Source: Candidatus Uhrbacteria bacterium (GTDB taxonomy: Bacteria > Patescibacteriota > Patescibacteriia > UBA9934 > GWF2-40-263). From it: 64,000 nucleotides of DNA. Under the pieces are notes generated by a model. It was not told where the DNA came from, searched no databases, and saw nothing but the letters and a program-made list of their open reading frames with translations. The stretch is taken from positions 1,337 to 65,336 of the forward strand of contig JACQSF010000005.1 of the NCBI GenBank assembly GCA_016206085.1, written 5' to 3'. A program made the translations under genes and the position numbers. Shown one piece after another: positions 7,212 through 49,299 of this stretch. The stretch's first letter is position 1. Every line of letters starts with the position of its first letter.

Positions 7212-7216
7212 ATCAA

Positions 7217-7567: not shown

Positions 7568-7571
7568 ACTG

Positions 7572-7922
7572 TTAGACAAGTTCAATTTGCACCATTTCCG
7601 CCCCATCATTTTTTCGGGCACCCATTTTTACAATACGCGTGTAGCCACCAGCACGATGTTGATAGCGAGGACCAAGAACCTCAAAAATCTTCTTGACAGG
7701 ATGTTCCGTGTAAAAAAACCCCATGAGTTTTCGTCGAGCGGCGATGGTAGGTTTTTTTCCCGACGTGATGGCTTTCTCCACCAACGACTTCACCGCTTTT
7801 GCCTTTGCTTGGGTCGTTTTTACCTTCTCATACAAAATCACGCTGGCGGCGAGATTTCGAAGCAAGGCCTCCCGAGGAGCCTTTTCACGACCTAAAATGG
7901 TACCTTTCTTTCGATGACGCAT
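7572..7922 (-). CDS. rplQ: 50S ribosomal protein L17
   Basis: MRHRKKGTILGREKAPREALLRNLAASVILYEKVKTT. Confidence 0.95.
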   Translation of the reverse strand: MRHRKKGTILGREKAPREALLRNLAASVILYEKVKTTQAKAKAVKSLVEKAITSGKKPTIAARRKLMGFFYTEHPVKKIFEVLGPRYQHRAGGYTRIVKMGARKNDGAEMVQIELV

Positions 7923-7928
7923 AGTCGA

Positions 7929-8645: not shown

Positions 8646-8662
8646 ACTTGTTAAAGATAAAC

Positions 8663-22802: not shown

Positions 22803-23600
22803 CTACAGTAGCAGGAGTATCGCGATACCGACAAGCACACGGAAAATGGCGAGCTCGCTGAAACTATATCTCTTGAGAAACTTCAGAAGGAACTTCACGG
22901 TAATAAACGCGCTAATCATGGCAACGATAAACCCCACAGCGAGCGGTAGCAAGGCGATGGTCTCCTCTCCGTTGACCACGCTGCCAAGTTTCAGGAATCC
23001 GGCGGCCGCAATCGTAGGGATCGAGAGGAGGAACGAGAAACGTGCGGCGGTCTCTCGAGAGAGTCCGGATGCCAGTCCCGCGGTCATGGTGATACCGGAG
23101 CGTGAGGTTCCAGGAATAATGGCAATCATTTGGGCAAATCCAATGAGGAACGCGCGCTTGAGTCCCACGCTTTGAGGACGGTCTTTTATTTCCTTCACGC
23201 GACGATCCACGAAGTAAAGCACGCTTCCCCAGACAATGAACGACCATGCGACTATTTCAACAGAACGAAATTCAATCTCAAAAACTTCCTGAAAAAGGAA
23301 ACCAACAAGAAGGACTGGGATCGTCGCAAGGGCCACCCAGGTCGCAAGTTTGCGCCAAGCCACAGAAGCTTCATCATGGGAAGGAACCAGAAGGGCACCA
23401 ATCATGGACTTCACCTCATGCCAAAGCACCGCTACAATCGCCACCAGCGTGGCGATGTGTAAGAATGCATCAAATGCGAGACTCTGAACATCCCATCCAA
23501 ACACTTCTGGAACAAGAATTAAAAAACCCGAGCTTGAGATCGGCAAAAATTCCGTGATGCCCTGGACCAGACCCAGGACAATCGCCTGTGTAACGGTCAT
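22803..23600 (-). CDS. uppP: undecaprenyl-diphosphate phosphatase
   Basis: VLGLVQGITEFLPISSSGF ... IIPGTSRSGITMTAGL. The start was moved to ATG 23600, 1 nt after the upstream stop. Confidence 0.9.
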   Translation of the reverse strand: MTVTQAIVLGLVQGITEFLPISSSGFLILVPEVFGWDVQSLAFDAFLHIATLVAIVAVLWHEVKSMIGALLVPSHDEASVAWRKLATWVALATIPVLLVGFLFQEVFEIEFRSVEIVAWSFIVWGSVLYFVDRRVKEIKDRPQSVGLKRAFLIGFAQMIAIIPGTSRSGITMTAGLASGLSRETAARFSFLLSIPTIAAAGFLKLGSVVNGEETIALLPLAVGFIVAMISAFITVKFLLKFLKRYSFSELAIFRVLVGIAILLLL

Positions 23601-23601
23601 A

Positions 23602-25635
23602 TTAATCAAATCGAATCGTTTGGCCGGTGTGAAGCGTGCCTGTTTGATTTGTTGATTCGGACGTAACTTCGGGAGCCGAAGCCAGTTTTTTCTTCTTTCG
23701 TTTTCGTTTTCTTTTTTCCAATACGGTATCTCCACCTGAATTGATTGCCCTCGGAATCGTTTTCGTTGCTATTTCTGTTTTACGACGTTCACGAATTTTT
23801 GCTAAACAGTTCTCACAATAGAGCGGCCGTGATGGATCAAGTTTTACGCCTGCTTTAAACGCCGTACCACACTGATTGCAGATGTACTCATAGGTTTCCC
23901 CCCGCATCTCTTTTTTTCGTGGACGAATTTCTGCCTGCGTCGGTGTCTTCTGTCCCTCAAACAGCACCCCAAGATTCAAAGATGGTCCGTCGAGCGCTTC
24001 TTGTGTAGGTTCGGGTTTGGATTCTGGTCTTGATCCTTCCTGTGTGTGCGGCTTGTGAAGTGCCCCAAGGCTTATGGAGGGCTCCTCTGGTAATAACCTT
24101 ATTGGTTTCTCTTCCAGTGGTCTGGAAGGAGTTTCCAGAAACCTCCCTTTTTTTCCTTTCCGTTCCTCGCGAACGATGGCGATACAATCATCGCAATAAA
24201 TCGGACGTGATCGATCCAGTTCAACCGGAAGGACGATACCTGTTGCACATCGTGAACAGGTATATTCAAACCGAGGTTTCTTACTCTCTTTGGCCATCTT
24301 TTTCTTTTCAGCAGCCTCCTGCAGAAGCTCATCAACGTCGGCGTTCTCCATCCCGCTCCATTGTAAAACTTTTTCTTCTATTTCCACACGCGGTTTGGCG
24401 TAACGTTCGCGAGAAATTTTGATGACTTTTTGTTCTGATCCAGTTTTTTGAGAAATGGGCGGCAACGTGATCGCGGAGAATGGTTGACTTGTTACACCAT
24501 CAATCAACAGTTTAAGGTAGATGTTATATTTGGGGAGGTTGATAATGTCTTCAGGCGTAAATCGGGGCATGAATTCCGTTTCCATAAACGCGGCGTCTGG
24601 TGAACCAACACGGAACGTTATAATTGTTCCCACGTTTCCAAACACCGCGTCACGCACCGGCTCGGTTAGCTGCGCGATGTACTGATGAGCCATCGTCAAA
24701 CACAGGCGATACTTCCGAGCCTCAGAAAGGATGGAGGCGAACGACTCAACGGCGAAATTTTGAAACTCGTCAACGTAGAGGTAAAAATCTTTCCTCTCAT
24801 GCTCCAGTGTATCCACGCGTTCCATCGCGGCAAGCTGCATCTTGGTAATCAATAATCCACCCAGAAGCCGCGAGTTATCTTCACCGATACGACCTTTTGA
24901 GAGGTTAATGATGAAGATTTTTTGACTATCCATAATGTCCCGAACATTGATGGAGGACTTTACTTGCGCAACAATGTTTCGAATCACAACGGCTGACAGA
25001 AACTGTCCAATCTTATTTTGAATCGGAGCAACGGCCTCCTGGGCATATTTCTCATTGTAGGAAGCAAACTCAACCAGCCAGAACTGTTTCACGACAGGGT
25101 CCTTCACGTTTCCCACGATCCGTTTGCGAAAATCCGCATCCGATAACATGCGGTTAATGCCAAGCAATGTTTGCCCTGGCGAATCCATCAGAGCCAACAG
25201 GGTGTTATTCAAAATGTATTCCATACGACTGGACCACATATTCTCCCAAATTTTTTGAAACACTCCCATCATGCCTGAAACGACGAGATGTTTATGAGAT
25301 TCACTTACCGCCTCCAGAATATTGAATCCCACAGGGAAATCCATGTCCGCCGGATTAAAATATACGACGTCGTTGAGACGCCAACTGGGAATAAAGTCAA
25401 TGAGCCTTTCGGCTGTATCTCCATGCGGATCGACGTAGCAACAACCATGTCCAGCATAAATATCCGATAACATGAAATTTTCCAATAAGACCGTTTTGCC
25501 CATGCCTGTTTTTCCAATCACATACACATGCCGACGTCGGTCGTCAGTCCTGATTCCAAACTTTGTCATCTGATTACGGAAATTTGTCTTGGCGAAGTAG
25601 GTAACTTCGGTTTCGTGTTCGTGATTGTATGACAT
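23602..25635 (-). CDS. TraD/VirD4-like (type IV coupling-protein-like) P-loop ATPase with two C-terminal CxxC-x17-CxxC zinc ribbons
   Basis: Walker A GKTGMGKT, Walker B FYLYVDEFQNF and a TMAHQYIAQL motif. There is no TM segment. The C-terminal third contains C460/C463/C481/C484 and C586/C589/C607/C610 plus a poly-Lys tract. Confidence 0.7.
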   Translation of the reverse strand: MSYNHEHETEVTYFAKTNFRNQMTKFGIRTDDRRRHVYVIGKTGMGKTVLLENFMLSDIYAGHGCCYVDPHGDTAERLIDFIPSWRLNDVVYFNPADMDFPVGFNILEAVSESHKHLVVSGMMGVFQKIWENMWSSRMEYILNNTLLALMDSPGQTLLGINRMLSDADFRKRIVGNVKDPVVKQFWLVEFASYNEKYAQEAVAPIQNKIGQFLSAVVIRNIVAQVKSSINVRDIMDSQKIFIINLSKGRIGEDNSRLLGGLLITKMQLAAMERVDTLEHERKDFYLYVDEFQNFAVESFASILSEARKYRLCLTMAHQYIAQLTEPVRDAVFGNVGTIITFRVGSPDAAFMETEFMPRFTPEDIINLPKYNIYLKLLIDGVTSQPFSAITLPPISQKTGSEQKVIKISRERYAKPRVEIEEKVLQWSGMENADVDELLQEAAEKKKMAKESKKPRFEYTCSRCATGIVLPVELDRSRPIYCDDCIAIVREERKGKKGRFLETPSRPLEEKPIRLLPEEPSISLGALHKPHTQEGSRPESKPEPTQEALDGPSLNLGVLFEGQKTPTQAEIRPRKKEMRGETYEYICNQCGTAFKAGVKLDPSRPLYCENCLAKIRERRKTEIATKTIPRAINSGGDTVLEKRKRKRKKKKLASAPEVTSESTNQTGTLHTGQTIRFD

Positions 25636-25641
25636 GGGGGT

Positions 25642-27183
25642 CTAAATAGGGAGATTGGATGGAACGTCTTCTGACGGCGTTGCTTGTTCATCGTCAACCT
25701 CTAATTTTTTCGGCATGTGTGGGTGTGGCATGGCCTGAGAAAGTGGTTCATCGCTTACCGTTTCAGTCATCACAGGAAACGCTTGTCTGTCTGGTTCAGG
25801 TTCCATCCCAGGCGGCACGTATCCAGGCAATGTTTCCTCCAAGTACGTAATGGGAAGTCCAGAAGGCGGTTCCGCACGTTTTGATTCGCTCTTTTTGACC
25901 AGTGGAGCTTTGATGGTGATCGAGGGAAAGTGCCAAATCGTAGCCAATTCTTCCACATTCAAGAAAAACGGGTCAGCACCCACTCCCCAACTTCGTCGTT
26001 GATACGCAGACATCAGTCGACGTTGTTTTGTCGTGTAAAACCATCGCATCCAAAAATAGTCATCTTTAGGAACGGAAGGGACGTGAACAGTAAATTTGTT
26101 GAGGTTGAGGTTGGTAAGCTGGTTAAGAACCCCCTTCACGATCCCCGTTCGTTCCACTTTTACGAACGCATTTTTTCGAGCGACATACAGCACCCGAATC
26201 TTGCACCCAAGCCCGATCTTGGACGCTTTTCTGAGGATCGCTTCTGCTTCCTCCTTCTGGGCAATGGTCACCTTAAACGCCTTCCATTGATCCTCAACTT
26301 TTTCCTGCTCCTTTGATCCAAGCAGGCCACTCACATCCATCCCTATTGCCTCCTGAATAAGCCCTGCCGGCCAAGAAACGGTAGAATCAAGCGCCTCGAG
26401 AAAAAAACTTTTCTTTGCTTTCTCCTCAACACCGTACAATTTATTCACAAATTTGACACTCTTTTTCTGCCAATTGCTATCCGATGGTTGTACAAGAATC
26501 TGAATCCAAAAATGTTCTCCGGCACGCATCTTGGCGAGTTGTTCAAGCGTTACGCCAAGCGGATCCTTGATCTCCTGGGAAATTCGATCCTCAAAATCCA
26601 AATGCGTTCGAACAGGGTAAATCTGATCCCTGTCCAGTTTCATTTCGGCGCCCCACATTTCGTAGTCGTCATTGGGGAACTCGAAAGGATACTTCTTGGC
26701 ATAGTCCTCGACCTCTGAAATTTCTGCCTCAGGATAATTCGCGTAGACCCCCGCCTCAATCACGTCGCGAAACCGTGTTTGTGTACGAACCAAAAATTGG
26801 ATGTACCCTTCTGTAGAAATGATCTCAAACGCAAACACCGGATGAAGTTTCCCGTCCATCCACTTCTCCTTCCAGGTGATGGTGGACTTTGTAGCCATCA
26901 AAGAAGCAAAGAAATTTTCGAAGGCCTTGGGTGTCTGTTCGGTCATGCTGGGAACATCGATGGCAAGCACCGTGAACTTCATCTTGACTGAATATTTTCC
27001 CCGTCGATCATTGAGCCACATTTCAGCAAATCCCCAGCCCAGGGTGATGACGATGGGAATCCATCCAAACCAAATAAAAATCTCAAAAAGAATAACGTCA
27101 ATCGGCTGTGCAAAAAACGAGGAGCCACTGGAGGCGACCCCTGTTGCTTGGTGTGCGATGGGAATGACGAACAATGAAAGCAT
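25642..27183 (-). CDS. hypothetical membrane protein (two N-terminal TM helices plus a large cytoplasmic domain), partner of the ATPase
   Basis: Hydrophobic N-terminus (FEIFIWFGWIPIVITLGWGF). A 6-nt gap separates it from the downstream ATPase gene. No recognised domain. Confidence 0.5.
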   Translation of the reverse strand: MLSLFVIPIAHQATGVASSGSSFFAQPIDVILFEIFIWFGWIPIVITLGWGFAEMWLNDRRGKYSVKMKFTVLAIDVPSMTEQTPKAFENFFASLMATKSTITWKEKWMDGKLHPVFAFEIISTEGYIQFLVRTQTRFRDVIEAGVYANYPEAEISEVEDYAKKYPFEFPNDDYEMWGAEMKLDRDQIYPVRTHLDFEDRISQEIKDPLGVTLEQLAKMRAGEHFWIQILVQPSDSNWQKKSVKFVNKLYGVEEKAKKSFFLEALDSTVSWPAGLIQEAIGMDVSGLLGSKEQEKVEDQWKAFKVTIAQKEEAEAILRKASKIGLGCKIRVLYVARKNAFVKVERTGIVKGVLNQLTNLNLNKFTVHVPSVPKDDYFWMRWFYTTKQRRLMSAYQRRSWGVGADPFFLNVEELATIWHFPSITIKAPLVKKSESKRAEPPSGLPITYLEETLPGYVPPGMEPEPDRQAFPVMTETVSDEPLSQAMPHPHMPKKLEVDDEQATPSEDVPSNLPI

Positions 27184-27202: not shown

Positions 27203-27232
27203 CAAAAAACTGGGTCTGCACCCAGTTTTTCT
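27203..27232 (-). terminator. Rho-independent terminator after secF
   Basis: aaaaactgggt-ctgc-acccagttttt, an 11-bp stem with a T-run on the minus strand. Confidence 0.5.
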
Positions 27233-27237: not shown

Positions 27238-28131
27238 CTAGGTGTTTTTTTGAGTACGCAAAGTCACAAGCAATGGACTTGCGATAAACACGGATGAGTA
27301 GGTTCCCACCAGGACTCCAATGAGCAGTAACATCGCAAACGGACGTGTGGATTCTCCCCCAAAGAGAAAGACCGCAAGGAGCGCCAGGAAAACAGTCACG
27401 GACGTATTGATGGAACGGGCAAGTGTTTGATCAATCGCGCGATCCACAATTTCCTCAAGATGCGTTGAGATTTTCAGTTTCAAGTTTTCGCGCGTTCGAT
27501 CCAACACCACCACACCGTCATTAATAGAGTATCCCAGAATCGTCAGGGCTCCCGCAACAAAGGCTGTATCCATCTCATACCCTAGAAAATGACCCAAGAT
27601 CGCAAAGACACCAATAGAAATCAGGAGGTCATGGAAGGTTTTGAGGACGGTCAGAATCGCGATCTTTTTTCCAGAGATAAGCGTTTCGTCAGCGCTTTTG
27701 AAGGACCAGGCAAGATACAACGCGATAAGCACAAGGCTTGTGCCAATTCCCCACAGGGCCATTTGGCGCAATTCTTTCCCAATGATGGGACCAATGGAAT
27801 CGAACTTGAGTTCCGTGATCGCTCCAAATGTCTGAGTAAGACTTCCCAGAAGGACTTGGTGTTCTTCCTCCGTGATGGTGCGGGTTCTGATGAGAACACT
27901 CTCTTGTGAGAGCTGAACAACCGCCTCGGTATGTCCGGCTGTGGCCAGAGCCTCATGTACGGCAGATTGCGTCGGAAGTGGATTCATGGAAACTTCCAGG
28001 AGTGAACCTCCGGTGAAATCGATCCCAGGTCGGAGTCCCCAAACAGTCAGAGCAACAATACTCAAAACACCTAGCGCGAGTGAGAACCCATACCAGGCCT
28101 TACGATGTTCAATAATGTGTAGCTTGATCAT
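27238..28131 (-). CDS. secF: protein translocase subunit SecF
   Basis: GIDFTGGSLLEV ... SINDGVVVLDRTRE ... TSVTVFLALLAVFLFGG. Confidence 0.9.
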   Translation of the reverse strand: MIKLHIIEHRKAWYGFSLALGVLSIVALTVWGLRPGIDFTGGSLLEVSMNPLPTQSAVHEALATAGHTEAVVQLSQESVLIRTRTITEEEHQVLLGSLTQTFGAITELKFDSIGPIIGKELRQMALWGIGTSLVLIALYLAWSFKSADETLISGKKIAILTVLKTFHDLLISIGVFAILGHFLGYEMDTAFVAGALTILGYSINDGVVVLDRTRENLKLKISTHLEEIVDRAIDQTLARSINTSVTVFLALLAVFLFGGESTRPFAMLLLIGVLVGTYSSVFIASPLLVTLRTQKNT

Positions 28132-28135
28132 AACG

Positions 28136-30199
28136 TTAGGTGCGTGGAGATTTAGAAAAACTGGAGAGCCAGGGGATCTTCAGGGCGTTGCGTGGAAACG
28201 CCGCGTCCATAAAACTCCGGGTGATCACGACGGCCGTGAACATACTGACCAAGACACCAATTCCAAGCAGGAGCGCAAAGCCGCGCACAAAACTGGTACT
28301 AAACACATAGAGGACAATCGCCACGACAAGGGTCGCCACATTTGAATCGCGAATGGCCGGCCAGGCACGTAGGAATCCTTCACGCGTTGCTCCAGCAAAA
28401 TCACGTCCCGATGCAAGCTCTTCCTTCATACGTTCGATGATGAGCACATTTGCATCCACCGCCATCCCCAAAGAGAGAATGAATCCAGCCACACCCGAGA
28501 GCGTGATGGTTACACCAAAGACTCGATAAATGGCCAGGTTGAGGAGCGCGTACAACATGAGAGCCACCACGGAAAAAAAACCAGCAAGCCGGTAATACGC
28601 GATCATGTAGATTGCCACGAGCGTGAATCCAACCAATGCAGCCTTCACACTCATAGAAAGCGACGTTGCCCCAAGGGTTGGTCCAACCGTCTGCTGCGAG
28701 AGCAGCGCAAGGGCAACCGGAAGAGCCCCTGCGTTCAAACGCTGAGACAACATCTTGGCTTCCGCCACGGTAAAGTTTCCGGTGATCACGGCCTGACCCC
28801 CGTAAATTGCCTGTTGAACGACGGGTGTTGAAATGGCTGAACCATCCAAGAAGATCGCCATGGGTTGACCCACGTGTGTTTGGGTTAACGTTGCAAAGAG
28901 ATCCGCCCCTTCTCCATTAAATGTGATGGCGACATAGGCAGAGCCGGTGGATGGGTCGAATTCAACCGCTGCGCGTGTGAGGTGCTTTCCACTGAGTGAG
29001 GTATTCACCCACTCATCAGTCTGAGGAATAACATCGTAGATACTCGAAAACGGCATGAGCACACGCTGGATCGTATAAGCCGGAATGGTTCGCTCATCGC
29101 GCTTGAGGATAAGATGGTAGCCGTACTCGGTTTCAACCACGGAAGAAATCTGCCCAATCTCAAGCTGCTCGGAGGCAAGACCAAAAGACGCAACATACGC
29201 ATCTGCTGTGGACCATCCCAAATCTCCCGAATTCGAAACGGCAGAGGGATCTGTCGAGTATTGTTTTGCAAGCTCCCCAAAATTTTCTGTGGTTGCTTGA
29301 TCTTTCAAATTGGTGATTTGGATCGAGGCATCCAGGGCGGTGAGCTCGTTCGTGCAACCTGTCTTACCCTCAAAACAGATGAGGATATGTGAAAGCTGCA
29401 TCTGTGCCATGTTGGTTGACTCAAGATACTTGAAGACACTAATTCCCTCTTCGTTCTCAAGAAGGTTCCCATTCACCTGCCCGGGGATAGCACCGCGCTG
29501 TTCAAGAAGAAGAACGTACTCGCCGAAAAAGGAATCTGAGGTCACACGTTGGATGATTCCCTTTGTGGTTTCTTTGTTGCGATCTGTGCTGTACTGAGCG
29601 ACAAGCGAATCAAAATCTTCCTGAGCACGTGCTCGATTGAGCACCTCTTGTGCGGCGGCTCGTTCTTGGGTGTTGAGTTCGTCCAACCTGTCTAACTCCT
29701 CCTTAGTGGGTTCACGATCAAGCTCTTCTCCAGGCACCTTAAACTCAAGGACAGGCGTCTCGCCAATCAGGGCAATCGCTTCGCTAACCTCAAGCACGCC
29801 AGCCAATTCGATCACAACGCGATAAGACCCACCTGTCGACGTTATCTGTACAACAGGTTCAGACACGCCAAAAGCGTTTACCCGTCTCTCAATCACATCA
29901 CGAACCCCCTCAAGCGCCTCCAAGCGATCTTCCTCTGGAATTTGAGTCATGTCCGCCTCATATACAAGGTGGGTTCCTCCTTGGAGGTCAAGTCCCAGAC
30001 GGAAAGATTTTTCTTCAAGCGTTGGAGGCAACCAGCCCGTTTTTGCCTCAACAAATTTTGCTCCCTGGTTCCAAAACCCAGGAAAATCATAGAATAGGGT
30101 GACAACGATGGCGATTAAGCCAAGAATTGCCCAAGCACGGGGCTTCCATGTTTTGGAACCATGAGCCACAGTTTTTTTCTTTATTTTCCACGTTTGCAT
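28136..30199 (-). CDS. secD: protein translocase subunit SecD with inserted tandem parvulin-like domains
   Basis: LGLDLQGGTHLVYE, RVNAFGVSEPVVQ, and the C-terminal 6-TM RND-like region with GMAVDANVLIIERMKEE. A PpiC-like block occupies aa about 286-386. The start was moved to ATG 30199. Confidence 0.9.
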   Translation of the reverse strand: MQTWKIKKKTVAHGSKTWKPRAWAILGLIAIVVTLFYDFPGFWNQGAKFVEAKTGWLPPTLEEKSFRLGLDLQGGTHLVYEADMTQIPEEDRLEALEGVRDVIERRVNAFGVSEPVVQITSTGGSYRVVIELAGVLEVSEAIALIGETPVLEFKVPGEELDREPTKEELDRLDELNTQERAAAQEVLNRARAQEDFDSLVAQYSTDRNKETTKGIIQRVTSDSFFGEYVLLLEQRGAIPGQVNGNLLENEEGISVFKYLESTNMAQMQLSHILICFEGKTGCTNELTALDASIQITNLKDQATTENFGELAKQYSTDPSAVSNSGDLGWSTADAYVASFGLASEQLEIGQISSVVETEYGYHLILKRDERTIPAYTIQRVLMPFSSIYDVIPQTDEWVNTSLSGKHLTRAAVEFDPSTGSAYVAITFNGEGADLFATLTQTHVGQPMAIFLDGSAISTPVVQQAIYGGQAVITGNFTVAEAKMLSQRLNAGALPVALALLSQQTVGPTLGATSLSMSVKAALVGFTLVAIYMIAYYRLAGFFSVVALMLYALLNLAIYRVFGVTITLSGVAGFILSLGMAVDANVLIIERMKEELASGRDFAGATREGFLRAWPAIRDSNVATLVVAIVLYVFSTSFVRGFALLLGIGVLVSMFTAVVITRSFMDAAFPRNALKIPWLSSFSKSPRT

Positions 30200-30224
30200 A
30201 TGAGATAAAAGACGGCAATAGTGT

Positions 30225-30815
30225 ATGCGATCAGATCCCCTGGAGCAAGTGCACAACCCAAGATTGATTGACGCAATGAGTCTATTGATGTATGGTTCCT
30301 CGTCCTTTGGAGGTCAGATGTCAAGTACGAGAGGCGCCATTGCCCTCAAACAGGAAGTCCCGGATCAGACCCTCATCGCCCAGGAGCCAAGCCTGGTTCT
30401 GAGCGTCGTCGAGGTGGACGGAAATCCGTTGGAAGAGAACCCCTTCACGGCTACCATCCCCTTCCAACGACTCCAGGAACGGATCATCATCGGGTGTGAA
30501 AGCCCGACGCAGATCCCTCTGTTCCATCCGGATCTGGATCTGCAAGAAATCCTCAAGACCTATTCGACCGCAGACACTGGTTGGATCGTCTCGCGACAGC
30601 ATGTGCTGTTGGGCTTGCAGGATGGTGTCGTCATTGCCACCAACCTCTCCCACAGCAGTGGCACCTCATGGATCGAGAGATCCACACGCCTGCGTCCACT
30701 GCTCTCGCGCTACCCACACGTTCTTCGGCCCGGCGACATCCTTATTCTGGGGAACCCCAGTGGACGCTGTGTCCGGATTCGGATCGAGTTCTCCTCCACG
30801 TCCCACAACGAGTGA
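30225..30815 (+). CDS. hypothetical protein with an FHA-like C-terminal domain
   Basis: IIIGCES...VSRQHVLLGLQDGVVIATNLSHSSGTSWI...LRPGDILILG resembles the FHA pattern (G-R ... SR-H ... S-x-N-G-T). The true start may be at 30276. The segment is somewhat GC-richer than its neighbours. Confidence 0.35.
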   Translation: MRSDPLEQVHNPRLIDAMSLLMYGSSSFGGQMSSTRGAIALKQEVPDQTLIAQEPSLVLSVVEVDGNPLEENPFTATIPFQRLQERIIIGCESPTQIPLFHPDLDLQEILKTYSTADTGWIVSRQHVLLGLQDGVVIATNLSHSSGTSWIERSTRLRPLLSRYPHVLRPGDILILGNPSGRCVRIRIEFSSTSHNE

Positions 30816-30863: not shown

Positions 30864-32411
30864 TCACATGTCAGTTCCTGAGTAACTAAGGTTGAGAGAC
30901 TTATTGCACAGCGGAAAGTCTGGGACGATGTTTCCTGGTCCAAGCTCTCCAAACAGCGCCCAGTTGCAAAACGATGGGTCGCGGGGCATACAGCGTTCTA
31001 TTTTTCCATTTTTGAGGTGCACGACGGTAAGAATCTCTCCGCGCCAGGATTCGACGGCACCAATACCTGATCCGTCCTTATAAGATAGACCTGTGCAGAC
31101 GACGCCACCCCTGTTCAGCTTGAGCGCCGCCAGAAGAACCTCCAGAGAAACAGCAAGCTCATCCACACGACATCGATATCGAGCATACACGTCTCCATCC
31201 ATCGCTGTCACGAGTTTCCAAGGAAGTTCCTGGTACGCGGCATACGGGTGTGAGGCTCGAACATCTCGCATGACACCAGAGGCACGAGCCGGAAGTCCGA
31301 CCGCCCCGTAGGCGATCGCTGTTTCATGCTTGAGCACACCGGTTGTCTCCAATCGCTCTCGTAGTCCATCTGATTGCATTGCCATGGCGACCAAATCCTG
31401 CATTTCTTTGACCGCGGCCGTGGCGGTCTCGCTTACCAGATCGCATTCCCCCTCTGTCCAATCGCGCGTAACACCACCTGGAACGATTGCTCCGCGCCAG
31501 AATCGGTTACCCAGCAATGATTCAGAGAGTCGCACAAGACGCTCTTTTACGCGGAAACCGTTAGCCGCCATAAGGCTGTATCCAGTTCCCATGCCAGCGA
31601 TATTGGCGAGATCGTGGATGTGCATTGTGAGACGTTCAAGTTCACACAGGGCGACGCGCAAAGCCTGCGCACGCTCTGGAACCTTTGTCTCAGAAATTTT
31701 TTCCACAGCCTGACAAAACGCGAGGGCGTGTGATGCGGCCATATCGCCGGAAAGACGTTCGATGAAAGCCAGAGCCTCCTCTGGAGTCTTCCCTTCCAGA
31801 AGTTTCTCAACCCCCTTATGAGTGAAGAACAATTTTCCCTCAAGAGTAATGATACGTTCTCCCGCGACGTTGAAGCGGAAATGTCCCGGTTCGATGATCC
31901 CGGCGTGAATCGGTCCCACAGGGATCTCATACACTCCATCCCCTTCAACATGATGCATCGGGTACGGAACCTGGGCATGATCGAGTTTGGTGTTCCAAGC
32001 AAAATCTTTTCGAAGCGGGTGTGTTTCTTCGGGGATATTTTCGTGGTGAACCAAACGGCGTGGATCTGGATGACCCTCTGGAGTAATTCCAAACATGTCT
32101 TGGAGGTAGCGCTCATACCAGTGAGCCGCCATCACGGACGCAGTAATGGACGGATAAGATGGACTCTCGGATGAGACAGATGTCGAGAGAACCAACCACT
32201 GTGCTTCCTCTTCCAGAGACAGAACCGCATGAACACTAAACGTATTTTTTTGTGCTCGGTCGTCTGTGGCATACACCAACGAAAGTGGTAAACCAGACTC
32301 GATGAGCTTCCCGACAAGAGTGGCAAACTCCACAGACTCAACCTGACAATGCATTTCGTCGTGATGAGTTGTGGAAGAAGGAAATAAAGATTTTATCTGT
32401 TTGTATGTCAT
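30864..32411 (-). CDS. fused NuoC-NuoD / HycE-like large subunit lacking all NiFe-ligand cysteines
   Basis: NuoC-like N-terminus (AAHWYERYLQDMFGITPEGHPDPRRL), then PVGPIHAGIIEPGHFRF...FTHKGVEKL. L1 reads ERLSGDMAASH and L2 reads NLSYSGTDM. The start forms an ATGA overlap. Confidence 0.85.
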   Translation of the reverse strand: MTYKQIKSLFPSSTTHHDEMHCQVESVEFATLVGKLIESGLPLSLVYATDDRAQKNTFSVHAVLSLEEEAQWLVLSTSVSSESPSYPSITASVMAAHWYERYLQDMFGITPEGHPDPRRLVHHENIPEETHPLRKDFAWNTKLDHAQVPYPMHHVEGDGVYEIPVGPIHAGIIEPGHFRFNVAGERIITLEGKLFFTHKGVEKLLEGKTPEEALAFIERLSGDMAASHALAFCQAVEKISETKVPERAQALRVALCELERLTMHIHDLANIAGMGTGYSLMAANGFRVKERLVRLSESLLGNRFWRGAIVPGGVTRDWTEGECDLVSETATAAVKEMQDLVAMAMQSDGLRERLETTGVLKHETAIAYGAVGLPARASGVMRDVRASHPYAAYQELPWKLVTAMDGDVYARYRCRVDELAVSLEVLLAALKLNRGGVVCTGLSYKDGSGIGAVESWRGEILTVVHLKNGKIERCMPRDPSFCNWALFGELGPGNIVPDFPLCNKSLNLSYSGTDM

Positions 32412-33886
32412 AAAGGTGTGAGAGACTTGGCGATCTGAGAGACCATTTCCCAACCTGCTCCAGAAAGCATCCAGATGCCGAACACGAGAGCGGCTCCCAA
32501 CTGAACCGTCATGACCGTGTGGGCAAGGTTCCCTGTTTCAACCGAGGCGTCTTGTTTTTCTTCTGGGACGACGGGGCTGTACAAAAGCTCAAACAAATGT
32601 CGACTCAGTCCCAGTCCTGCCATGGTAATTCCAAGAAGCGCAAGCAGCGCGATCACCGGACTGCGGGTCAATCCTTCTCCGACTAGGATATATTCACTCA
32701 AGAACAGTCCGGATGGAGGAACACCGATCAAAAACAGAGCCGCGATTAAAAAGAGAAACCCTGTGCGTGGCGCTCGACGCATCACATCATGGACAAGATA
32801 AAATTTTGTAGATTCAAACCGTTGCAAGAGCTCTCCTGCCCCGAAGAACAAGGTGGATTTCGCCAGGGCATGCCCAATCATGTGGATGGTGAATCCAACC
32901 ATTCCAACAGGTCCCAGTCCCACCAGCACTCCCATGATTCCCATGTGTTCCACGCTGTGGTAGGCAAGCATACGCTTGTAATTGCGCTGAATGAGCAAAA
33001 TGAATGCAGCCAGCAAAATGGAGAAGAGGCCGAAAAAGAGAAAAAACTGGTTCGTCCAGTCCGGGTTGCCAAGCGTCCCATCGACAATGACCTTGAACCT
33101 CAAGAGCGTGAAGAACGCAACATTGAGCAGGATACCCGAGAGCATAGCGGAAACCGGAGCCGGCGTTTTGCTGTGCGCGTCCGGGAGCCACGTGTGCATG
33201 GGGACAAATCCGATTTTGGTTCCAAAACCAATGAATAAGAACACGAATGCCCACATCACGATCCCAGGGTTCATCGTTCCTGCCACATCCTGAAGCAGAT
33301 TCATTCTAAATGCCTCAGCCTCGTGCAAACCCGCGCCCGCACCTGCATAGCCCAAGACGAGAATCCCAAAAAGTCCCAGGGCAATTCCTGTTGAGCACAG
33401 GACGATATACTTCCACGCCGCCTCCATCGAGGATTTCTTTCCATAAAAGGAGACAAGGAGTGTGGTTGAAAGCGTGGTCGCTTCAAGTCCAACCCAAAGG
33501 AGTCCGACGTTGTTTGCGAAAATCGCCACAAGCATGGAGAGGACAAACAGGGGTACGCTCACCATGTAGAGTCGCATGTGCCGCAAGGACAAGATCTCCT
33601 TACGTTCCTCCACGGCAAGGTAGTGAAAACTCACCCCCATGGCACAGGCGTAGAGCCAGACCACCAAGAGGGCGACAAGTGAAGCAAACGGGGTCACGTC
33701 CCACCAGGACGTTTGCCAGCCTTCTGTGAGACCGACCAATACCGGACCCAACATCCAGGTCATCGTTACAAGCGTGATGATCGATGTTATGAGACCAATC
33801 GCTCGAAGCATCCGACCATGCATGTTCGGGAGAAGACAGACAGCGGAACCGATGAGAAGAATTCCAACGGAAAGAAAAAACGTCAT
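32408..33886 (-). CDS. NuoN/NuoM / HyfF-like antiporter-type membrane subunit
   Basis: LLWVGLEATTLST and GFGTKIGFVPMHTWLPDAHSKTPAPVSAMLSG (Proton_antipo_M hallmark). Confidence 0.8.
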   Translation of the reverse strand: MTFFLSVGILLIGSAVCLLPNMHGRMLRAIGLITSIITLVTMTWMLGPVLVGLTEGWQTSWWDVTPFASLVALLVVWLYACAMGVSFHYLAVEERKEILSLRHMRLYMVSVPLFVLSMLVAIFANNVGLLWVGLEATTLSTTLLVSFYGKKSSMEAAWKYIVLCSTGIALGLFGILVLGYAGAGAGLHEAEAFRMNLLQDVAGTMNPGIVMWAFVFLFIGFGTKIGFVPMHTWLPDAHSKTPAPVSAMLSGILLNVAFFTLLRFKVIVDGTLGNPDWTNQFFLFFGLFSILLAAFILLIQRNYKRMLAYHSVEHMGIMGVLVGLGPVGMVGFTIHMIGHALAKSTLFFGAGELLQRFESTKFYLVHDVMRRAPRTGFLFLIAALFLIGVPPSGLFLSEYILVGEGLTRSPVIALLALLGITMAGLGLSRHLFELLYSPVVPEEKQDASVETGNLAHTVMTVQLGAALVFGIWMLSGAGWEMVSQIAKSLTPL

Positions 33887-33888
33887 AC

Positions 33889-34554
33889 TTAGTCAGTCAA
33901 CTCATTCAAATGAGTGGTATCGTGCGTCCCAAACAAGGCCTGAACGCGGTGGCTCAGCGTGGCCATGAGGATCGCTCCAATCAAGACGGCCGAGTACACG
34001 CCAAACTCAATCGCCACGGGAATTCCTCCTAAGGCACTCAACGAAAATGCCGCGATCCCGTTTTCAAGCACAAGGAAGCCAATAAGCTGGGAAAGCAGGT
34101 CGCGTCGCAAAATCATCATGACGAGTCCGACAAGAATGACTCCAACGGAAATCGGCAAAAGAACCAGGATCTGACCGATTCCCTCCCCCGCGAGAATGAG
34201 CGGTGAACGCAGTGCAAGAAAAATTCCTAAAGTGAAAACGAGTCCACCGACGAACCAGCTTGCCGAAGGGCGCAACGAGGATGAAAGACGTAACGACGCA
34301 CCGGAGTGTTCTGCCATGTTTCGAATCACAAAAGGAACCAGGAGTGCCTTGATGGCCACAACGGCGACGGCAACGGGAATGAGATGCATGGCAGATTTCT
34401 CATAAGCGAGAGCCAGAGCGAGGCCACCCAGCGCCACAGATGAAAATGTATAGGATCGCAAGAGGCTCGGGAGACGCATGAGCGTGAACGACGCCAGTGT
34501 CCCCGCGATAAACAGTCCAAGCATGAGCATTGTGAATAACGTAGGGGTCGTCAT
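33889..34554 (-). CDS. HyfE-like small polytopic membrane subunit (NuoK-related)
   Basis: A 221-aa protein with about 7 TM segments, placed between the HycD-like and HyfF-like genes as in hyf operons. ATGA overlap upstream. Confidence 0.6.
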   Translation of the reverse strand: MTTPTLFTMLMLGLFIAGTLASFTLMRLPSLLRSYTFSSVALGGLALALAYEKSAMHLIPVAVAVVAIKALLVPFVIRNMAEHSGASLRLSSSLRPSASWFVGGLVFTLGIFLALRSPLILAGEGIGQILVLLPISVGVILVGLVMMILRRDLLSQLIGFLVLENGIAAFSLSALGGIPVAIEFGVYSAVLIGAILMATLSHRVQALFGTHDTTHLNELTD

Positions 34555-37453: not shown

Positions 37454-37457
37454 AGAT

Positions 37458-46078: not shown

Positions 46079-46163
46079 AAATAAAGGCGTGAAGAGTGTA
46101 CCGGATAAATCTCCCAGGGTCAACAGAATCTCGAAAATGTGTCCCCAGAATCAAAGTGTGCAC

Positions 46164-46192: not shown

Positions 46193-46194
46193 AT

Positions 46195-49283: not shown

Positions 49284-49299
49284 GGCCACGCCTCAACGC

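What the first reader, a model, noticed from the sequence alone, without database searches (positions are those of the whole stretch)
23602..27183. Soluble TraD/VirD4-like ATPase paired with a two-TM protein: a possible split coupling-protein / nucleic-acid translocase
The 677-aa ATPase has Walker A GKTGMGKT, Walker B FYLYVDEFQNF and the TMAHQYIAQL motif typical of TraD/VirD4/TraG-type coupling proteins. It lacks the N-terminal transmembrane anchor those proteins normally have.

The gene 6 nt upstream (25642-27183, 513 aa) supplies two N-terminal TM helices plus a large cytoplasmic domain with no recognisable fold. The pair has its own transcription unit boundary: the secF terminator at 27203-27232 followed by a TATACT box.

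No relaxase, VirB4, pilin or other T4SS or conjugation genes are nearby. The neighbours are uppP and secDF, which are housekeeping envelope genes. This suggests a chromosomal, non-conjugative role such as DNA or RNA uptake or export, or exchange with a host cell.
Basis: partly seen in the sequence, partly recalled or inferred. Interest (0 to 1): 0.55.

Follow-up and report, generated by a model that had tools for sequence, protein, structure and literature searches.

The report
Split DUF8128 coupling-protein ATPase pair
These two adjacent genes of a Candidatus Uhrbacteria (CPR) genome are the two halves of a coupling-protein ATPase that is a single protein in actinobacterial conjugation systems and some Bacillus phages; here the pair sits next to secDF among housekeeping genes and is unusually well conserved, but its cargo is unknown.

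Summary
A 513-aa membrane protein (25642-27183, minus strand) lies 6 nt upstream of a 677-aa ATPase with no TM segment (23602-25635, minus strand) in a Candidatus Uhrbacteria contig.

The ATPase is a type IV coupling protein (T4CP) by Pfam and by fold (DotL, TrwB and Cagbeta are the top hits). It is not HerA or FtsK. The upstream protein is Pfam PF26449 (DUF8128).

Profile-profile alignment maps the two gene products contiguously onto one ~810-aa DUF8128-T4CP protein of Actinomycetota. The membrane protein matches columns 83-388 (probability 95%) and the ATPase matches columns 404-801 (probability 100%). In 4 of 4 actinobacterial loci examined that fused protein lies beside a VirB4-type ATPase and a Replic_Relax gene in a conjugation-type T4SS cluster.

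In 75 of 80 species-representative CPR loci the two genes are adjacent, usually with a gap of -4 to +12 nt. The block secD-secF-pair-(uppP)-(HD)-mnmA is conserved. The ATPase core is more conserved than SecD, SecF or MnmA.

The pair is therefore a vertically inherited core gene pair and not a mobile element. The most likely role is the relocated, split coupling protein of the chromosomal Patescibacteria T4SS. A T4SS-independent translocase remains a serious rival. Orphan T4CP homologues in CPR were already reported in 2025. The split, the synteny and the conservation appear to be undescribed.

The parts
25642..27183 (-). Gene for the 513-aa DUF8128 (PF26449) membrane subunit, the N-terminal 'half' of the split coupling protein
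   Evidence: ORF. The identical protein P0001 is annotated PF26449. hhalign against fused actinobacterial T4CPs, columns 83-388: probability 95.1%, E 3e-8. phrog_5156 N-terminal half: E 1.3e-12.
27025..27105 (-). The single strongly hydrophobic segment (residues ~27-53, with W41 and P43 invariant), taken as the membrane anchor; basic residues follow it on the cytoplasmic side
   Evidence: Kyte-Doolittle scan. AF2 helix 28-67. Invariant columns.
25843..26976 (-). DUF8128 alpha/beta core (residues ~70-447), separated by a low-confidence insert (256-298)
   Evidence: AF2 block-mean pLDDT 75-93 over residues 61-250 and 71-90 over 301-420. Foldseek hits: phage G gp156 1.6e-15; R388 TrwK/VirB4 probability 0.94-0.99 but E ~2e-3 and TM 0.3.
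25843..25962 (-). Conserved C-terminal motif LNVEELATIWHFP...KRAEPPSGLP (residues 408-447). It is homologous to the linker that directly precedes the ATPase domain in the fused proteins and is the likely docking peptide.
   Evidence: Invariant E411 E412 W417 H418 F419 P420 ... P439 P440 G442 L443. Aligned to SVPELAALAHLP...PP..IP of the fused proteins. Docking is inferred.
25636..25641 (-). 6-nt spacer between the stop of the membrane gene and the ATG of the ATPase gene
   Evidence: Across 75 loci most gaps are -4 to +12 nt, with 14 ATGA overlaps. The two ORFs are in frame in only 23 of 75 loci, which is the chance expectation.
23602..25635 (-). Gene for the 677-aa T4CP-type ATPase with no TM segment
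   Evidence: PF10412 at 40.6 bits (cut-off 20.5) and PF12696 at 26 bits (cut-off 22). hhalign against fused T4CP columns 404-801: probability 100%, E 5e-55. Foldseek: DotL 1.1e-6, TrwB 3.5e-6, Cagbeta 4e-6.
24367..25563 (-). ATPase core (residues 25-423), including the helical insert (~112-236)
   Evidence: Median identity of residues 1-430 is 70.5% across 51 loci.
25492..25515 (-). Walker A GKTGMGKT (residues 41-48)
   Evidence: Sequence. Invariant columns G41 K42 T43 G44 M45 G46 K47.
24754..24786 (-). Walker B region FYLYVDEFQNF (residues 284-294)
   Evidence: Sequence. Invariant F284 Y285 V288 D289 E290 F291 Q292 N293 F294.
24166..24273 (-). Zn ribbon 1, CxxC-x17-CxxC (C460, C463, C481, C484) with conserved flanks
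   Evidence: Present in 36 of 36 aligned homologues. AF2 pLDDT 73-86.
23797..23895 (-). Zn ribbon 2, CxxC-x17-CxxC (C586, C589, C607, C610), an optional duplicate
   Evidence: PF23477 and TIGR04272 hits. Present in only 14 of 36 homologues. AF2 pLDDT 91-94.
23605..23646 (-). Conserved extreme C-terminal peptide ...TGTLHTGQTIRFD-COOH at the end of a K/R/E/P-rich disordered tail
   Evidence: Motif sGtlxxGQtIkF[D/E] at the true C-terminus in 36 of 36 homologues.
27205..27230 (.). Palindromic terminator-like hairpin between secF and the membrane gene, followed by TATACT
   Evidence: This is a consensus match only; function was not shown.
27238..30256 (-). secD-secF, the conserved upstream neighbours of the pair (context, not part of the machine)
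   Evidence: SecDF family present in 64 of 80 loci, and within three same-strand ORFs upstream of the membrane gene in 59.

Best explanation
The two genes encode one machine: a split type IV coupling protein of the DUF8128-T4CP type.

**Shown**
- The 513-aa product corresponds to the N-terminal part of a fused protein (DUF8128 domain plus a conserved linker motif), preceded by a membrane helix.
- The 677-aa product corresponds to the C-terminal T4CP ATPase.
- The two genes are adjacent, and probably translationally coupled, in nearly all CPR relatives examined.
- The pair is a vertically inherited core gene pair with a very strongly constrained ATPase.

**Inferred**
- The DUF8128 subunit tethers a hexameric ATPase ring to the cytoplasmic face of the membrane. 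Its conserved C-terminal peptide (residues 408-447) docks on the ATPase as the covalent linker does in the fused form.
- The ATPase uses ATP to recruit and push a macromolecular substrate.
- The CPR-specific tail (an invariant Zn ribbon, a basic disordered linker and a conserved C-terminal peptide) selects the substrate or an adaptor, as C-terminal extensions do in TraD and DotL.

**Most likely role.** The partner is the chromosomal, non-conjugative Patescibacteria T4SS encoded elsewhere in the genome. The pair would be that system's cognate coupling protein, relocated and split. It would be needed for substrate transfer but not for the essential pilus or assembly function.
For: **Identity**
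- Pfam PF10412 and PF12696 score above their cut-offs.
- All 33 Foldseek PDB hits with E <= 1e-3 are T4CPs: DotL, TrwB, Cagbeta.
- PF26449 is recorded on the identical protein.

**Split**
- hhalign A1 to fused columns 83-388 (probability 95%, E 3e-8), and A2 to columns 404-801 (probability 100%, E 5e-55).
- phrog_5156 matches both proteins, one in each half of the profile.
- Phage G gp156 BLASTP 2e-11; Foldseek 1.6e-15.

**Pairing**
- 75 of 80 loci have the two genes adjacent.
- Gaps are mostly -4 to +12 nt and all three stop codons are used.

**T4SS link**
- In 4 of 4 actinobacterial loci the fused protein lies immediately downstream of a VirB4-type ATPase gene and upstream of a Replic_Relax gene.
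- In the two complete clusters the order is T4SS_pilin PF18895 - TrbL_3 - PrgI - (TraC_F_IV) - VirB4 - DUF8128-T4CP - Replic_Relax - NlpC/P60.
- PF18895 pilins, VirB6, VirB3, TrsD and VirB4 are the components reported for the Patescibacteria T4SS (PMC12102498).
- VirB4 is present in 2,417 of 3,035 CPR genomes.

**Non-essentiality is compatible**
- The probable fused orthologue SEML1_0293 is scored NE while the T4SS cluster is essential.
- From general knowledge, not tested here: VirD4 is dispensable for pilus biogenesis in model systems.

**Precedent**
- TMD-less T4CPs with a separate membrane partner are a recognised class, e.g. TraJ/TraI of pIP501 (PMC7431656).
Against: - No T4SS gene is present in the 64-kb window, and none is among the recurrent neighbours of 80 loci.
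- In the literature only 148 of 5,713 CPR T4CP homologues lie near virB4. T4CP homologues occur in more genomes (2,918) than VirB4 does (2,417).
- At least one 1.16-Mb Uhrbacteria assembly scored VirB4-negative still has a high-coverage T4CP hit.
- The ATPase core is more conserved than SecD and SecF in 51 of 51 loci and than MnmA in 30 of 30. That fits a housekeeping enzyme better than a secretion-substrate receptor.
- Relaxases are rare in CPR, so the classical substrate is missing.
- The ATPase AF2 model is of modest quality (pLDDT 59).
- Whether this genome has a T4SS at all could not be checked.
Confidence: 0.5

Rival explanations
1. The pair is an exapted, T4SS-independent housekeeping translocase. 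The membrane-tethered hexameric motor works on its own or with another envelope machine, possibly the Sec apparatus whose secDF genes it follows. It would move DNA, RNA or protein across or along the cytoplasmic membrane, for example in nucleic-acid uptake or export, or in chromosome handling at division.
For: - The block secD-secF-pair-uppP-HD-mnmA is conserved, with SecDF upstream in 59-64 of 80 loci and SecA nearby in 6.
- The ATPase is more conserved than SecD, SecF and MnmA.
- T4CP homologues occur in 96% of CPR genomes against 80% for VirB4, and they are almost never linked to virB4.
- A Uhrbacteria assembly scored VirB4-negative has the T4CP hit.
- The authors of PMC12102498 themselves say exaptation 'cannot be ruled out'.
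- The CPR-specific invariant Zn ribbon and basic tail are absent from the Embleya fused conjugative protein.
Against: - Every non-CPR cellular relative examined in its full fused form sits in a T4SS cluster.
- No T4CP is known to translocate a substrate without a mating-pair-formation channel (general knowledge).
- The probable orthologue in S. epibionticum is not essential, which is unexpected for a core housekeeping function.
- The conserved block mixes unrelated functions (tRNA modification, undecaprenyl-phosphate recycling), so the synteny may reflect inheritance rather than function.
- A terminator-like hairpin separates secF from the pair in this window.
- MAG incompleteness inflates apparent VirB4 absence.
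Confidence: 0.3
2. The ATPase is really a HerA/FtsK-type dsDNA pump, used for chromosome segregation or repair, that has been mis-assigned to the T4CP family.
For: Weak sub-threshold Pfam hits to DUF87/HerA (E 0.04) and FtsK_SpoIIIE (E 0.041) over the P-loop. PADLOC HerA hits at 6e-4 and 3e-3. Many actinobacterial fused relatives are auto-annotated 'helicase HerA domain-containing'.
Against: - T4CP models score above their cut-offs, while the HerA and FtsK models score below theirs and cover only ~30-45 residues.
- All 33 Foldseek PDB hits with E <= 1e-3 are T4CPs. VirB4 follows at 6.5e-3 and one HerA-like chain at 2e-2. No FtsK chain appears.
- Profile search against the PDB finds TrwB and DotL first.
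- FtsK is mentioned in a study of at least one CPR bacterium, TM7x.
Confidence: 0.05
3. The pair belongs to an integrated conjugative or mobile element, or is a decaying remnant of one.
For: Its fused homologues are on plasmids and ICEs. A lone homologous ATPase sits between transposases on a Sulfitobacter plasmid.
Against: - The flanks are housekeeping genes in conserved order across 80 species-level genomes.
- No integrase, relaxase or T4SS gene was found.
- GC content over the pair is not atypical (0.47-0.50).
- Strong purifying selection acts on the ATPase.
- The membrane protein has no plasmid homologues.
Confidence: 0.02
4. The ATPase is a component of an anti-phage defence system (MADS-like, mad8).
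For: The best PADLOC hit is mad8, E 9.5e-19, over residues 33-373.
Against: - MADS is an 8-gene operon, and no other mad gene, methyltransferase or nuclease lies near the pair.
- The membrane partner has no meaningful PADLOC hit (only Cas7b at E 0.032).
- The high conservation and fixed housekeeping synteny are the opposite of what defence islands show.
- The mad8 hit most simply reflects shared T4CP-like ancestry.
Confidence: 0.03

Closest known systems
Fused DUF8128-T4CP proteins of actinobacterial T4SS conjugation modules (e.g. Embleya sp. NBC_00896 plasmid WP_331738717.1; Nonomuraea rubra P0440)
   Same: The same two modules occur in the same order: DUF8128, the linker motif ELAxLxHxP...PPxxxP, then the T4CP ATPase. 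Profile-profile probability is 95% for the first module and 100% for the second. An N-terminal hydrophobic segment is visible in the Embleya sequence (not scored). PF26449 is recorded on both.
   Different: - They are one polypeptide of ~680-810 aa, whereas here there are two genes.
- They are embedded in T4SS clusters beside a VirB4-type ATPase and a Replic_Relax gene, with pilin, VirB6, VirB3 and NlpC/P60 genes in the complete examples, on plasmids or ICEs. Here the pair sits in a housekeeping block next to secDF.
- The Embleya protein ends without a Zn-ribbon tail or the conserved C-terminal peptide.
TMD-less T4CPs with a separate membrane partner (class iii of Llosa and Alkorta 2017, e.g. 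TraJ/TraI of pIP501)
   Same: A soluble T4CP ATPase is proposed to be brought to the membrane by a separately encoded membrane protein (PMC7431656).
   Different: Those pairs lie inside conjugative T4SS operons. Homology between TraI of pIP501 and DUF8128 was not tested. The partner here carries a ~380-residue conserved cytoplasmic domain rather than only a membrane anchor.
Canonical VirD4/TrwB/TraD/DotL coupling proteins
   Same: The P-loop NBD with a helical insert is shared. These are the top fold matches, and the Pfam T4CP models score above their thresholds.
   Different: - Sequence similarity to solved T4CPs is limited to the P-loop region (E 4e-4 to 9e-4).
- There is no TMD in cis.
- The DUF8128 module has no counterpart in TrwB.
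- The tail carries Zn ribbons.
- There is no linked T4SS or relaxase.
Orphan T4CP homologues of Patescibacteria (Quinonero-Coronel et al. 2025, PMC12102498)
   Same: This ATPase is almost certainly one of the 5,713 VirD4-type hits reported in 2,918 CPR genomes, of which only 148 lie near virB4.
   Different: In the parts of that paper read here, it does not describe the DUF8128 partner, the split-versus-fused relationship, the secDF synteny or the exceptional conservation. No paper in the searchable library contains the word 'DUF8128'.
Bacillus phage proteins of phrog_5156 (phage G gp156, SPO1 gp27.4, JL, Shanette, CP-51)
   Same: They are fused DUF8128-like plus T4CP-like ATPase proteins. In phage G the gene is adjacent to a VirB4-like ATPase gene.
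   Different: They are phage-encoded with unknown function and are much more divergent (21-28% identity in the ATPase). In gp156 the alignment starts at residue 17, which leaves no room for a membrane anchor.
VirB4 (N-terminal domain plus C-terminal ATPase; split into TrsD + VirB4 in CPR and some Actinomycetota)
   Same: The overall logic is the same: an N-terminal alpha/beta scaffold domain followed by an FtsK-HerA-superfamily ATPase. R388 TrwK/VirB4 chains are the top PDB fold hits of the DUF8128 model (probability 0.94-0.99).
   Different: The E-value is only ~2e-3, TM ~0.3 and rmsd ~11 A. No profile-level sequence similarity to the neighbouring VirB4-like proteins was found (probability 0.2). 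The ATPase half matches T4CP models and not VirB4 models.

Membership tests
Type IV coupling protein (VirD4/TraD/TrwB; Pfam PF10412, PF02534, PF12696) | P-loop NBD that matches T4CP family models above the curated threshold | tested here: met
   PF10412 at 40.6 bits (cut-off 20.5) over residues 28-344. PF12696 at 26.0 bits (cut-off 22). PF02534 at 16.4 bits is below its cut-off of 20.1.
Type IV coupling protein (VirD4/TraD/TrwB; Pfam PF10412, PF02534, PF12696) | T4CP fold (NBD with an inserted all-alpha domain), closer to T4CPs than to VirB4, HerA or FtsK | tested here: met
   The 33 Foldseek PDB hits with E <= 1e-3 are all DotL, TrwB or Cagbeta. VirB4 follows at 6.5e-3. The model has a helical block at 112-236. 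Caveat: model pLDDT is 59.
Type IV coupling protein (VirD4/TraD/TrwB; Pfam PF10412, PF02534, PF12696) | N-terminal transmembrane domain in the same polypeptide | tested here: not met
   The ATPase has no hydrophobic segment. A membrane helix is supplied by the adjacent gene. TMD-less T4CPs are an accepted subclass.
Type IV coupling protein (VirD4/TraD/TrwB; Pfam PF10412, PF02534, PF12696) | Genetic linkage to a T4SS (VirB4) and/or a relaxase | tested here: not met
   None in the 64-kb window or among the recurrent neighbours of 80 loci. Linkage is present for the fused actinobacterial relatives. A T4SS elsewhere in this genome could not be checked.
Type IV coupling protein (VirD4/TraD/TrwB; Pfam PF10412, PF02534, PF12696) | Hexameric ATPase that couples a substrate to a T4SS channel | not testable with these tools
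   Requires biochemistry or genetics.
DUF8128 (Pfam PF26449) | Match to the PF26449 model | tested here: met
   Precomputed PF26449.1 on the identical protein P0001 and on 118 of the 120 listed homologues. The name DUF8128 comes from UniRef. The local Pfam copy lacks this model, so the direct scan found nothing.
DUF8128-T4CP fusion family (Actinomycetota; phrog_5156 in phages) | DUF8128 module followed by a T4CP ATPase, collinear with the fused protein | tested here: met
   hhalign 95.1% (E 3e-8) to columns 83-388 and 100% (E 5e-55) to columns 404-801. phrog_5156 matches both halves. The difference here is that the modules are encoded by two genes.
TMD-less T4CP plus membrane partner (TraJ/TraI of pIP501 type) | Soluble T4CP with an adjacent gene for a membrane protein | tested here: met
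TMD-less T4CP plus membrane partner (TraJ/TraI of pIP501 type) | Partner homologous to TraI of pIP501, and location in a conjugative T4SS operon | not tested
The operon criterion is not met in this window.
HerA / FtsK-SpoIIIE pumps | Match to PF01935 or PF01580 above threshold, or best fold match to HerA or FtsK | tested here: not met
   PF01935 at 14.5 bits (cut-off 23.2) and PF01580 at 13.8 bits (cut-off 24), over the P-loop only. No FtsK chain and only one weak HerA-like fold hit.
MADS defence system (mad8) | Part of the 8-gene mad operon | tested here: not met
   Only the mad8 model hits (E 9.5e-19). The neighbours are housekeeping genes. MADS is an 8-gene operon.
VirB4 N-terminal domain / TrsD (PF11130) | DUF8128 is homologous to the VirB4 N-terminal domain | tested here: inconclusive
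   Top PDB fold hits are TrwK/VirB4 (probability 0.94-0.99) but with E ~2e-3 and TM ~0.3, and the aligned region was not reported. No Pfam PF11130 hit. hhalign against the VirB4-like neighbours gives probability 0.2.

The most novel reading that the evidence does not exclude
The pair is not a T4SS accessory at all. It would be a self-sufficient, nearly universal CPR membrane translocase derived from a coupling protein: a DUF8128-anchored hexameric motor that moves nucleic acid or protein across the cytoplasmic membrane. It would work on its own or with the Sec machinery whose secDF genes it has followed through CPR diversification. The invariant Zn ribbon and C-terminal peptide would act as the cargo or partner selector. 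That would be a new minimal secretion or uptake system, and a candidate route for the exchange with hosts on which these reduced bacteria depend.
Probability: 0.15. Interest if true: 0.8.

Novelty: new variant of a known kind. Interest (0 to 1): 0.45.

Why it matters
CPR/Patescibacteria make up a large share of bacterial diversity and depend on other cells. Their T4SS is the first shown to be essential for its bearer, yet it is described as lacking a recognisable coupling protein and relaxase (Wang et al. 2023).

This analysis identifies the probable missing coupling protein. It is a two-gene, DUF8128-anchored T4CP that has left the T4SS cluster. In the lineages sampled it is fixed next to secDF, and it is under stronger constraint than core Sec components.

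That gives a concrete, testable handle on two questions: what the patescibacterial T4SS transports, and whether a coupling-protein motor has been repurposed for a housekeeping role.

It also assigns a first context to Pfam DUF8128 as the N-terminal module of a monoderm T4CP lineage shared by Actinomycetota, CPR and large Bacillus phages.

Tried and rejected
1. **Stop-codon readthrough.** In the window the two ORFs are in frame, separated only by TAG and 6 nt. Across 75 loci they are in frame in only 23, which is the chance expectation, and all three stop codons are used. Rejected.
2. **MADS defence (mad8 hit).** No other mad gene is present and the context is housekeeping. Rejected.
3. **HerA/FtsK assignment.** Rejected.
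4. **Integrated conjugative element.** Rejected on synteny and conservation.
5. **Sequence-level link between DUF8128 and VirB4-like proteins.** hhalign probability is 0.2. Only a weak fold-level hint remains.
6. **PDB sequence search for the 513-aa protein, single sequence and profile.** Nothing found.
7. **Plasmid search for the 513-aa protein.** No match.
8. **Rfam and tRNA scans of the window.** Nothing found.
9. **FtsK replacement idea.** A literature search showed FtsK mentioned in a study of the CPR bacterium TM7x, so this was not pursued.
10. **AF2 model of the ATPase.** Only pLDDT 59, with the P-loop and residues 293-391 poorly modelled. Its fold matches are used with caution.
11. **Failed or faulty calls.** One script call failed and was rerun. 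One Pfam call had a bad coordinate.
12. **Not possible here.** I could not check whether this Uhrbacteria genome carries virB4 elsewhere, run a multimer prediction, or obtain the SEML1_0293 sequence to prove orthology.

Full report
**1. What is in the sequence**

- The 677-aa protein contains GKTGMGKT (residues 41-48), FYLYVDEFQNF (284-294) and TMAHQYIAQL (314-323).
- It has no hydrophobic segment that passes a 19-residue Kyte-Doolittle scan.
- The spacer between the two genes is 6 nt (TAG ACCCCC ATG).
- The hairpin after secF (27205-27230) and the TATACT that follows are present.

Three details need correction.
- The 513-aa protein has one clearly hydrophobic segment (~27-53). The very short N-terminal stretch (1-10) is not a confident second TM helix.
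- Its cytoplasmic domain is a catalogued Pfam family, PF26449/DUF8128. My local Pfam copy lacks that model.
- The pair is not isolated downstream. The real uppP ATG starts 1 nt after the ATPase stop codon, and the HD-domain gene and mnmA follow at 2 and 11 nt.

The identical proteins are on record from a 65.7-kb Candidatus Uhrbacteria contig.

**2. What the two proteins are**

*The ATPase.*
- It matches the T4CP Pfam models above their thresholds: PF10412 at 40.6 bits (cut-off 20.5) and PF12696 at 26.0 bits (cut-off 22). It matches HerA and FtsK models only below threshold, over the P-loop.
- NCBIfam gives only partial TraD/VirD4-type hits.
- Against solved structures, sequence similarity is confined to the P-loop of DotL and TrwB.
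- The AF2 model is of modest quality (pLDDT 59). All of its 33 PDB fold matches with E <= 1e-3 are coupling proteins (DotL 1.1e-6, TrwB 3.5e-6, Cagbeta 4e-6). VirB4 follows at 6.5e-3, and no FtsK chain appears.

*The 513-aa protein.*
- It has no sequence match in the PDB.
- Its AF2 model is confident in the core (block-mean pLDDT about 67-93 over residues 21-250 and 71-90 over 301-420).
- The model matches Bacillus phage proteins strongly: phage G gp156 at 1.6e-15, phage JL at 5e-13, phage Slash at 1.7e-12.
- It matches R388 TrwK/VirB4 chains only marginally: probability 0.94-0.99, but E ~2e-3 and TM ~0.3.

**3. The pair is a split of one protein**

- The 824-position profile phrog_5156 matches the 513-aa protein in its first half (positions 49-359, E 1.3e-12) and the ATPase in its second half (positions 407-806, E 1e-58).
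- Phage G gp156 (825 aa) and SPO1 gp27.4 (906 aa) are such fusions.
- On an Embleya plasmid an 812-aa 'conjugative DNA transfer family protein' has the ATPase in its C-terminal half. Its N-terminal half aligns with the 513-aa protein in two collinear blocks.
- Searching with that N-terminal half recovered 97 proteins; the named ones are from Streptomyces, Frankia, Nonomuraea, Kitasatospora and Acidimicrobiia. Most carry PF26449, often together with PF10412, PF01935 or PF12696 in one chain.
- Profile-profile comparison settles the point. The CPR membrane-protein alignment maps to columns 83-388 of the fused family (probability 95.1%, E 3e-8). The CPR ATPase alignment maps to columns 404-801 (probability 100%, E 5e-55).
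- The break falls just after a conserved motif. In the 513-aa protein this is ELATIWHFP...KRAEPPSGLP (residues 408-447). In the fused proteins it is the linker that leads into the ATPase.

**4. The split is real and the pairing is conserved**

- Of 80 species-representative genome loci encoding a relative of the 513-aa protein, 75 have the ATPase immediately downstream on the same strand. The records are mainly titled Patescibacteria, Uhrbacteria, Falkowbacteria, Kerfeldbacteria, Paceibacter or Minisyncoccota. Many others carry what look like placeholder names.
- Three of the five exceptions end at a contig boundary. One (L084) is a true exception, with a DnaG primase gene downstream.
- Intergenic distances are mostly -4 to +12 nt, with 14 ATGA overlaps. 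All three stop codons are used.
- The two ORFs share a frame in 23 of 75 loci, which is the chance expectation. So this is neither a sequencing artefact nor a readthrough fusion. It looks like translational coupling of two subunits.
- The membrane-protein family is large: 2,625 representatives at 50% clustering with E <= 1e-3. The best 150 are all stand-alone proteins of 218-691 aa.

**5. Genomic context**

- The window is housekeeping throughout: AlaRS, MurJ, Era, MnmA, UppP, SecDF, an Mrp/hydrogenase-like complex, F-type ATP synthase, MetRS, RpoA and TatD. No T4SS, relaxase or integrase gene was found.
- Clustering all ORFs of the 80 loci shows a conserved block: secD-secF-(sigma70_r4/HARE-HTH gene)-DUF8128-ATPase-(uppP)-(HD)-mnmA.
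- Counts over the 80 loci:
  - SecDF present in 64, and within three same-strand ORFs upstream of the membrane gene in 59.
  - mnmA downstream in 38.
  - uppP downstream in 21.
  - The HD-domain gene downstream in 18.
  - SecA nearby in 6.
- The other recurrent neighbours are an alpha/beta-hydrolase, a methyltransferase, a pseudouridine synthase and a YkuD transpeptidase.
- The pair is therefore a vertically inherited chromosomal feature.

**6. Strength of constraint**

Median identity to the window protein across the 51 loci that contain SecD, SecF and both genes of the pair:

| Protein | Median identity |
|---|---|
| ATPase core (residues 1-430) | 70.5% |
| MnmA | 57.5% |
| SecD | 50.8% |
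| SecF | 47.6% |
| DUF8128 subunit | 40.3% |

- The ATPase is the most conserved of these in 51 of 51 loci, and it beats MnmA in 30 of 30.
- The tail is also structured:
  - One CxxC-x17-CxxC ribbon with near-invariant flanks is present in 36 of 36 homologues.
  - A second ribbon is present in only 14 of 36.
  - A K/R/E/P-rich low-complexity linker follows.
  - An extreme C-terminal peptide, sGtlxxGQtIkF[D/E], is present in 36 of 36.
- The Embleya fused protein ends without any of these tail features.

**7. What the relatives do**

- In four of four actinobacterial loci the fused DUF8128-T4CP lies immediately downstream of a VirB4-type ATPase gene and upstream of a Replic_Relax gene.
- In the two complete clusters the order is T4SS_pilin (PF18895) - TrbL_3 (VirB6) - PrgI (VirB3) - (TraC_F_IV, i.e. 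TrsD-like) - VirB4 P-loop ATPase - DUF8128-T4CP - a small ORF - Replic_Relax - NlpC/P60. One of them lies next to an integrase.
- Quinonero-Coronel et al. (PMC12102498) report the PF18895 pilins, VirB6, VirB3, TrsD and VirB4 as components of the Patescibacteria T4SS, which they place within MPF-FATA.
- The same paper reports:
  - 5,713 VirD4-type T4CP homologues in 2,918 of 3,035 CPR genomes, with only 148 near virB4.
  - VirB4 in 2,417 genomes.
  - Very few relaxases.
  - That exaptation of the T4CP 'cannot be ruled out'.
- Its supplement shows typically one high-coverage t4cp1 hit per genome, far from virB4. One such hit is in a 1.16-Mb Uhrbacteria assembly scored VirB4-negative.

**8. Genetic data from a cultivated relative**

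- In Ca. Southlakia epibionticum ML1 the T4SS cluster is essential and is described as lacking a recognisable coupling protein (Wang et al. 2023).
- Elsewhere in that genome, SEML1_0293 (921 aa) has its T4CP domains at residues ~402-719. That is the fused layout.
- SEML1_0293 is scored non-essential at all three time points. In the Tn-seq table the value that appears to be its normalised read count falls from 5817 to 2940 to 1372 while its neighbours stay flat. The column meaning is my inference.
- Its upstream neighbour, SEML1_0294, is a Sigma70_r4 plus HARE-HTH protein. The family that sits directly upstream of the DUF8128 gene in 14 of my loci has the same domain pair.
- From this I infer, without proof, that SEML1_0293 is the fused orthologue of the pair studied here.

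**9. Interpretation**

*Shown:* the pair is a two-gene version of a DUF8128-type coupling protein. It is core, syntenic and strongly constrained in the CPR lineages sampled.

*Inferred mechanism:* the DUF8128 subunit anchors a hexameric T4CP ring at the membrane through its helix and its C-terminal docking peptide. The ATPase recruits and drives a macromolecular substrate. The CPR-specific Zn-ribbon tail and C-terminal peptide select the cargo or an adaptor.

*Most likely role (about 0.5):* it is the cognate coupling protein of the unlinked chromosomal Patescibacteria T4SS. This fits the ancestry of the module. It also fits the observation that the T4SS is essential while the T4CP is not. In model systems VirD4 is dispensable for pilus biogenesis (general knowledge, not tested here).

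*Main rival (about 0.3):* it is a T4SS-independent translocase. The points in favour are:
- conservation above that of SecDF;
- the fixed position next to secDF;
- occurrence in more genomes than VirB4;
- the absence of relaxases.

**10. Novelty**

- Orphan T4CP homologues in CPR are already published.
- DUF8128 exists in Pfam, but no paper in the searchable library contains the word.
- TMD-less T4CPs with separate membrane partners are a recognised class (PMC7431656).
- What appears to be undescribed:
  - the demonstration that the CPR gene pair is a split DUF8128-T4CP;
  - its deep synteny with secDF;
  - its exceptional conservation;
  - the invariant Zn-ribbon and C-terminal-peptide tail;
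  - the link to SPO1-like and phage G proteins.
- I rate it a new variant of a known kind, of moderate interest.

Noticed in passing
window 47712-49283 (+), within 46000-50000: A 523-aa ORF with a normal-looking composition and no Pfam hit lies on the opposite strand to its neighbours, in a stretch with GC 0.57-0.62 against ~0.50 elsewhere. The long ORF on the other strand looks like an antisense artefact. This may be an acquired gene.
   Followed up: partly
L001:5953-8430 (Bacillus phage G gp156), L001:4288-5937 (gp155); L086:3747-6467 (SPO1 gp27.4): Large Bacillus phages (G, SPO1 and relatives, JL, Shanette, CP-51, SP-10) encode fused DUF8128-like plus T4CP-like ATPases (phrog_5156). In phage G the gene is next to a VirB4-like ATPase gene, and the gp156 alignment leaves no room for a membrane anchor. 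Their function in phages is unknown.
   Followed up: partly
L087:4002-13667; L088:4631-14191; L089:165-6241; L004:2255-10310: Actinobacterial ICEs and plasmids share T4SS clusters in which DUF8128-T4CP follows a VirB4-type ATPase and precedes Replic_Relax. In the complete examples (L087, L088) pilin PF18895, TrbL_3 and PrgI lie upstream and NlpC/P60 downstream. In L087 VirB4 is itself split into a TraC_F_IV-like gene (7149-7802) and a P-loop gene (7787-9004), which parallels the TrsD + VirB4 arrangement reported for CPR.
   Followed up: partly
window 23605-23646 (ATPase residues 664-677): The extreme C-terminal peptide ...sGtlxxGQtIkF[D/E]-COOH is conserved in 36 of 36 homologues, at the end of an otherwise variable disordered tail. 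It looks like a docking motif for an unknown partner.
   Followed up: partly
L002:6983-8170 (Sulfitobacter mediterraneus plasmid NZ_CP081110.1): The best non-CPR match to the ATPase (40% identity, 395 aa) is a lone T4CP-like gene with no DUF8128 partner and no tail. It is flanked by a recombinase and transposases, so it may have been horizontally acquired.
   Followed up: no
L011:14-1369 and five other loci: secA lies upstream of secD-secF in 6 of the 80 loci, so in some lineages three Sec genes and the pair are clustered. The 6-kb flanks may hide more cases.
   Followed up: no
window 22803-23735 (-): The mechanically listed uppP ORF overlaps the 3' end of the ATPase gene by 134 nt. The real start is almost certainly the ATG 1 nt after the ATPase TAA (MTVTQAIVLG...). 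That places the DUF8128 gene, the ATPase gene, uppP, the HD-domain gene and mnmA at gaps of 6, 1, 2 and 11 nt.
   Followed up: yes
window 30864-38024 (-): Upstream of secD lies a run of genes for a NuoD/[NiFe]-hydrogenase large-subunit-like protein (from its translation), Proton_antipo_M proteins and a NADHdh (NuoH-like) protein, followed by an F-type ATP synthase operon. This looks like an Mrp/hydrogenase-like membrane complex, and CPR bacteria are generally described as lacking a respiratory chain.
   Followed up: no
SEML1_0142 of Ca. S. epibionticum ML1 (literature supplement, not in the window): A second T4CP/FtsK-like protein (1,019 aa, 'TraM recognition domain', P-loop domain at 381-800) is scored essential in the Tn-seq data, unlike SEML1_0293. 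CPR genomes therefore carry at least two distinct T4CP-like paralogues with different importance.
   Followed up: no
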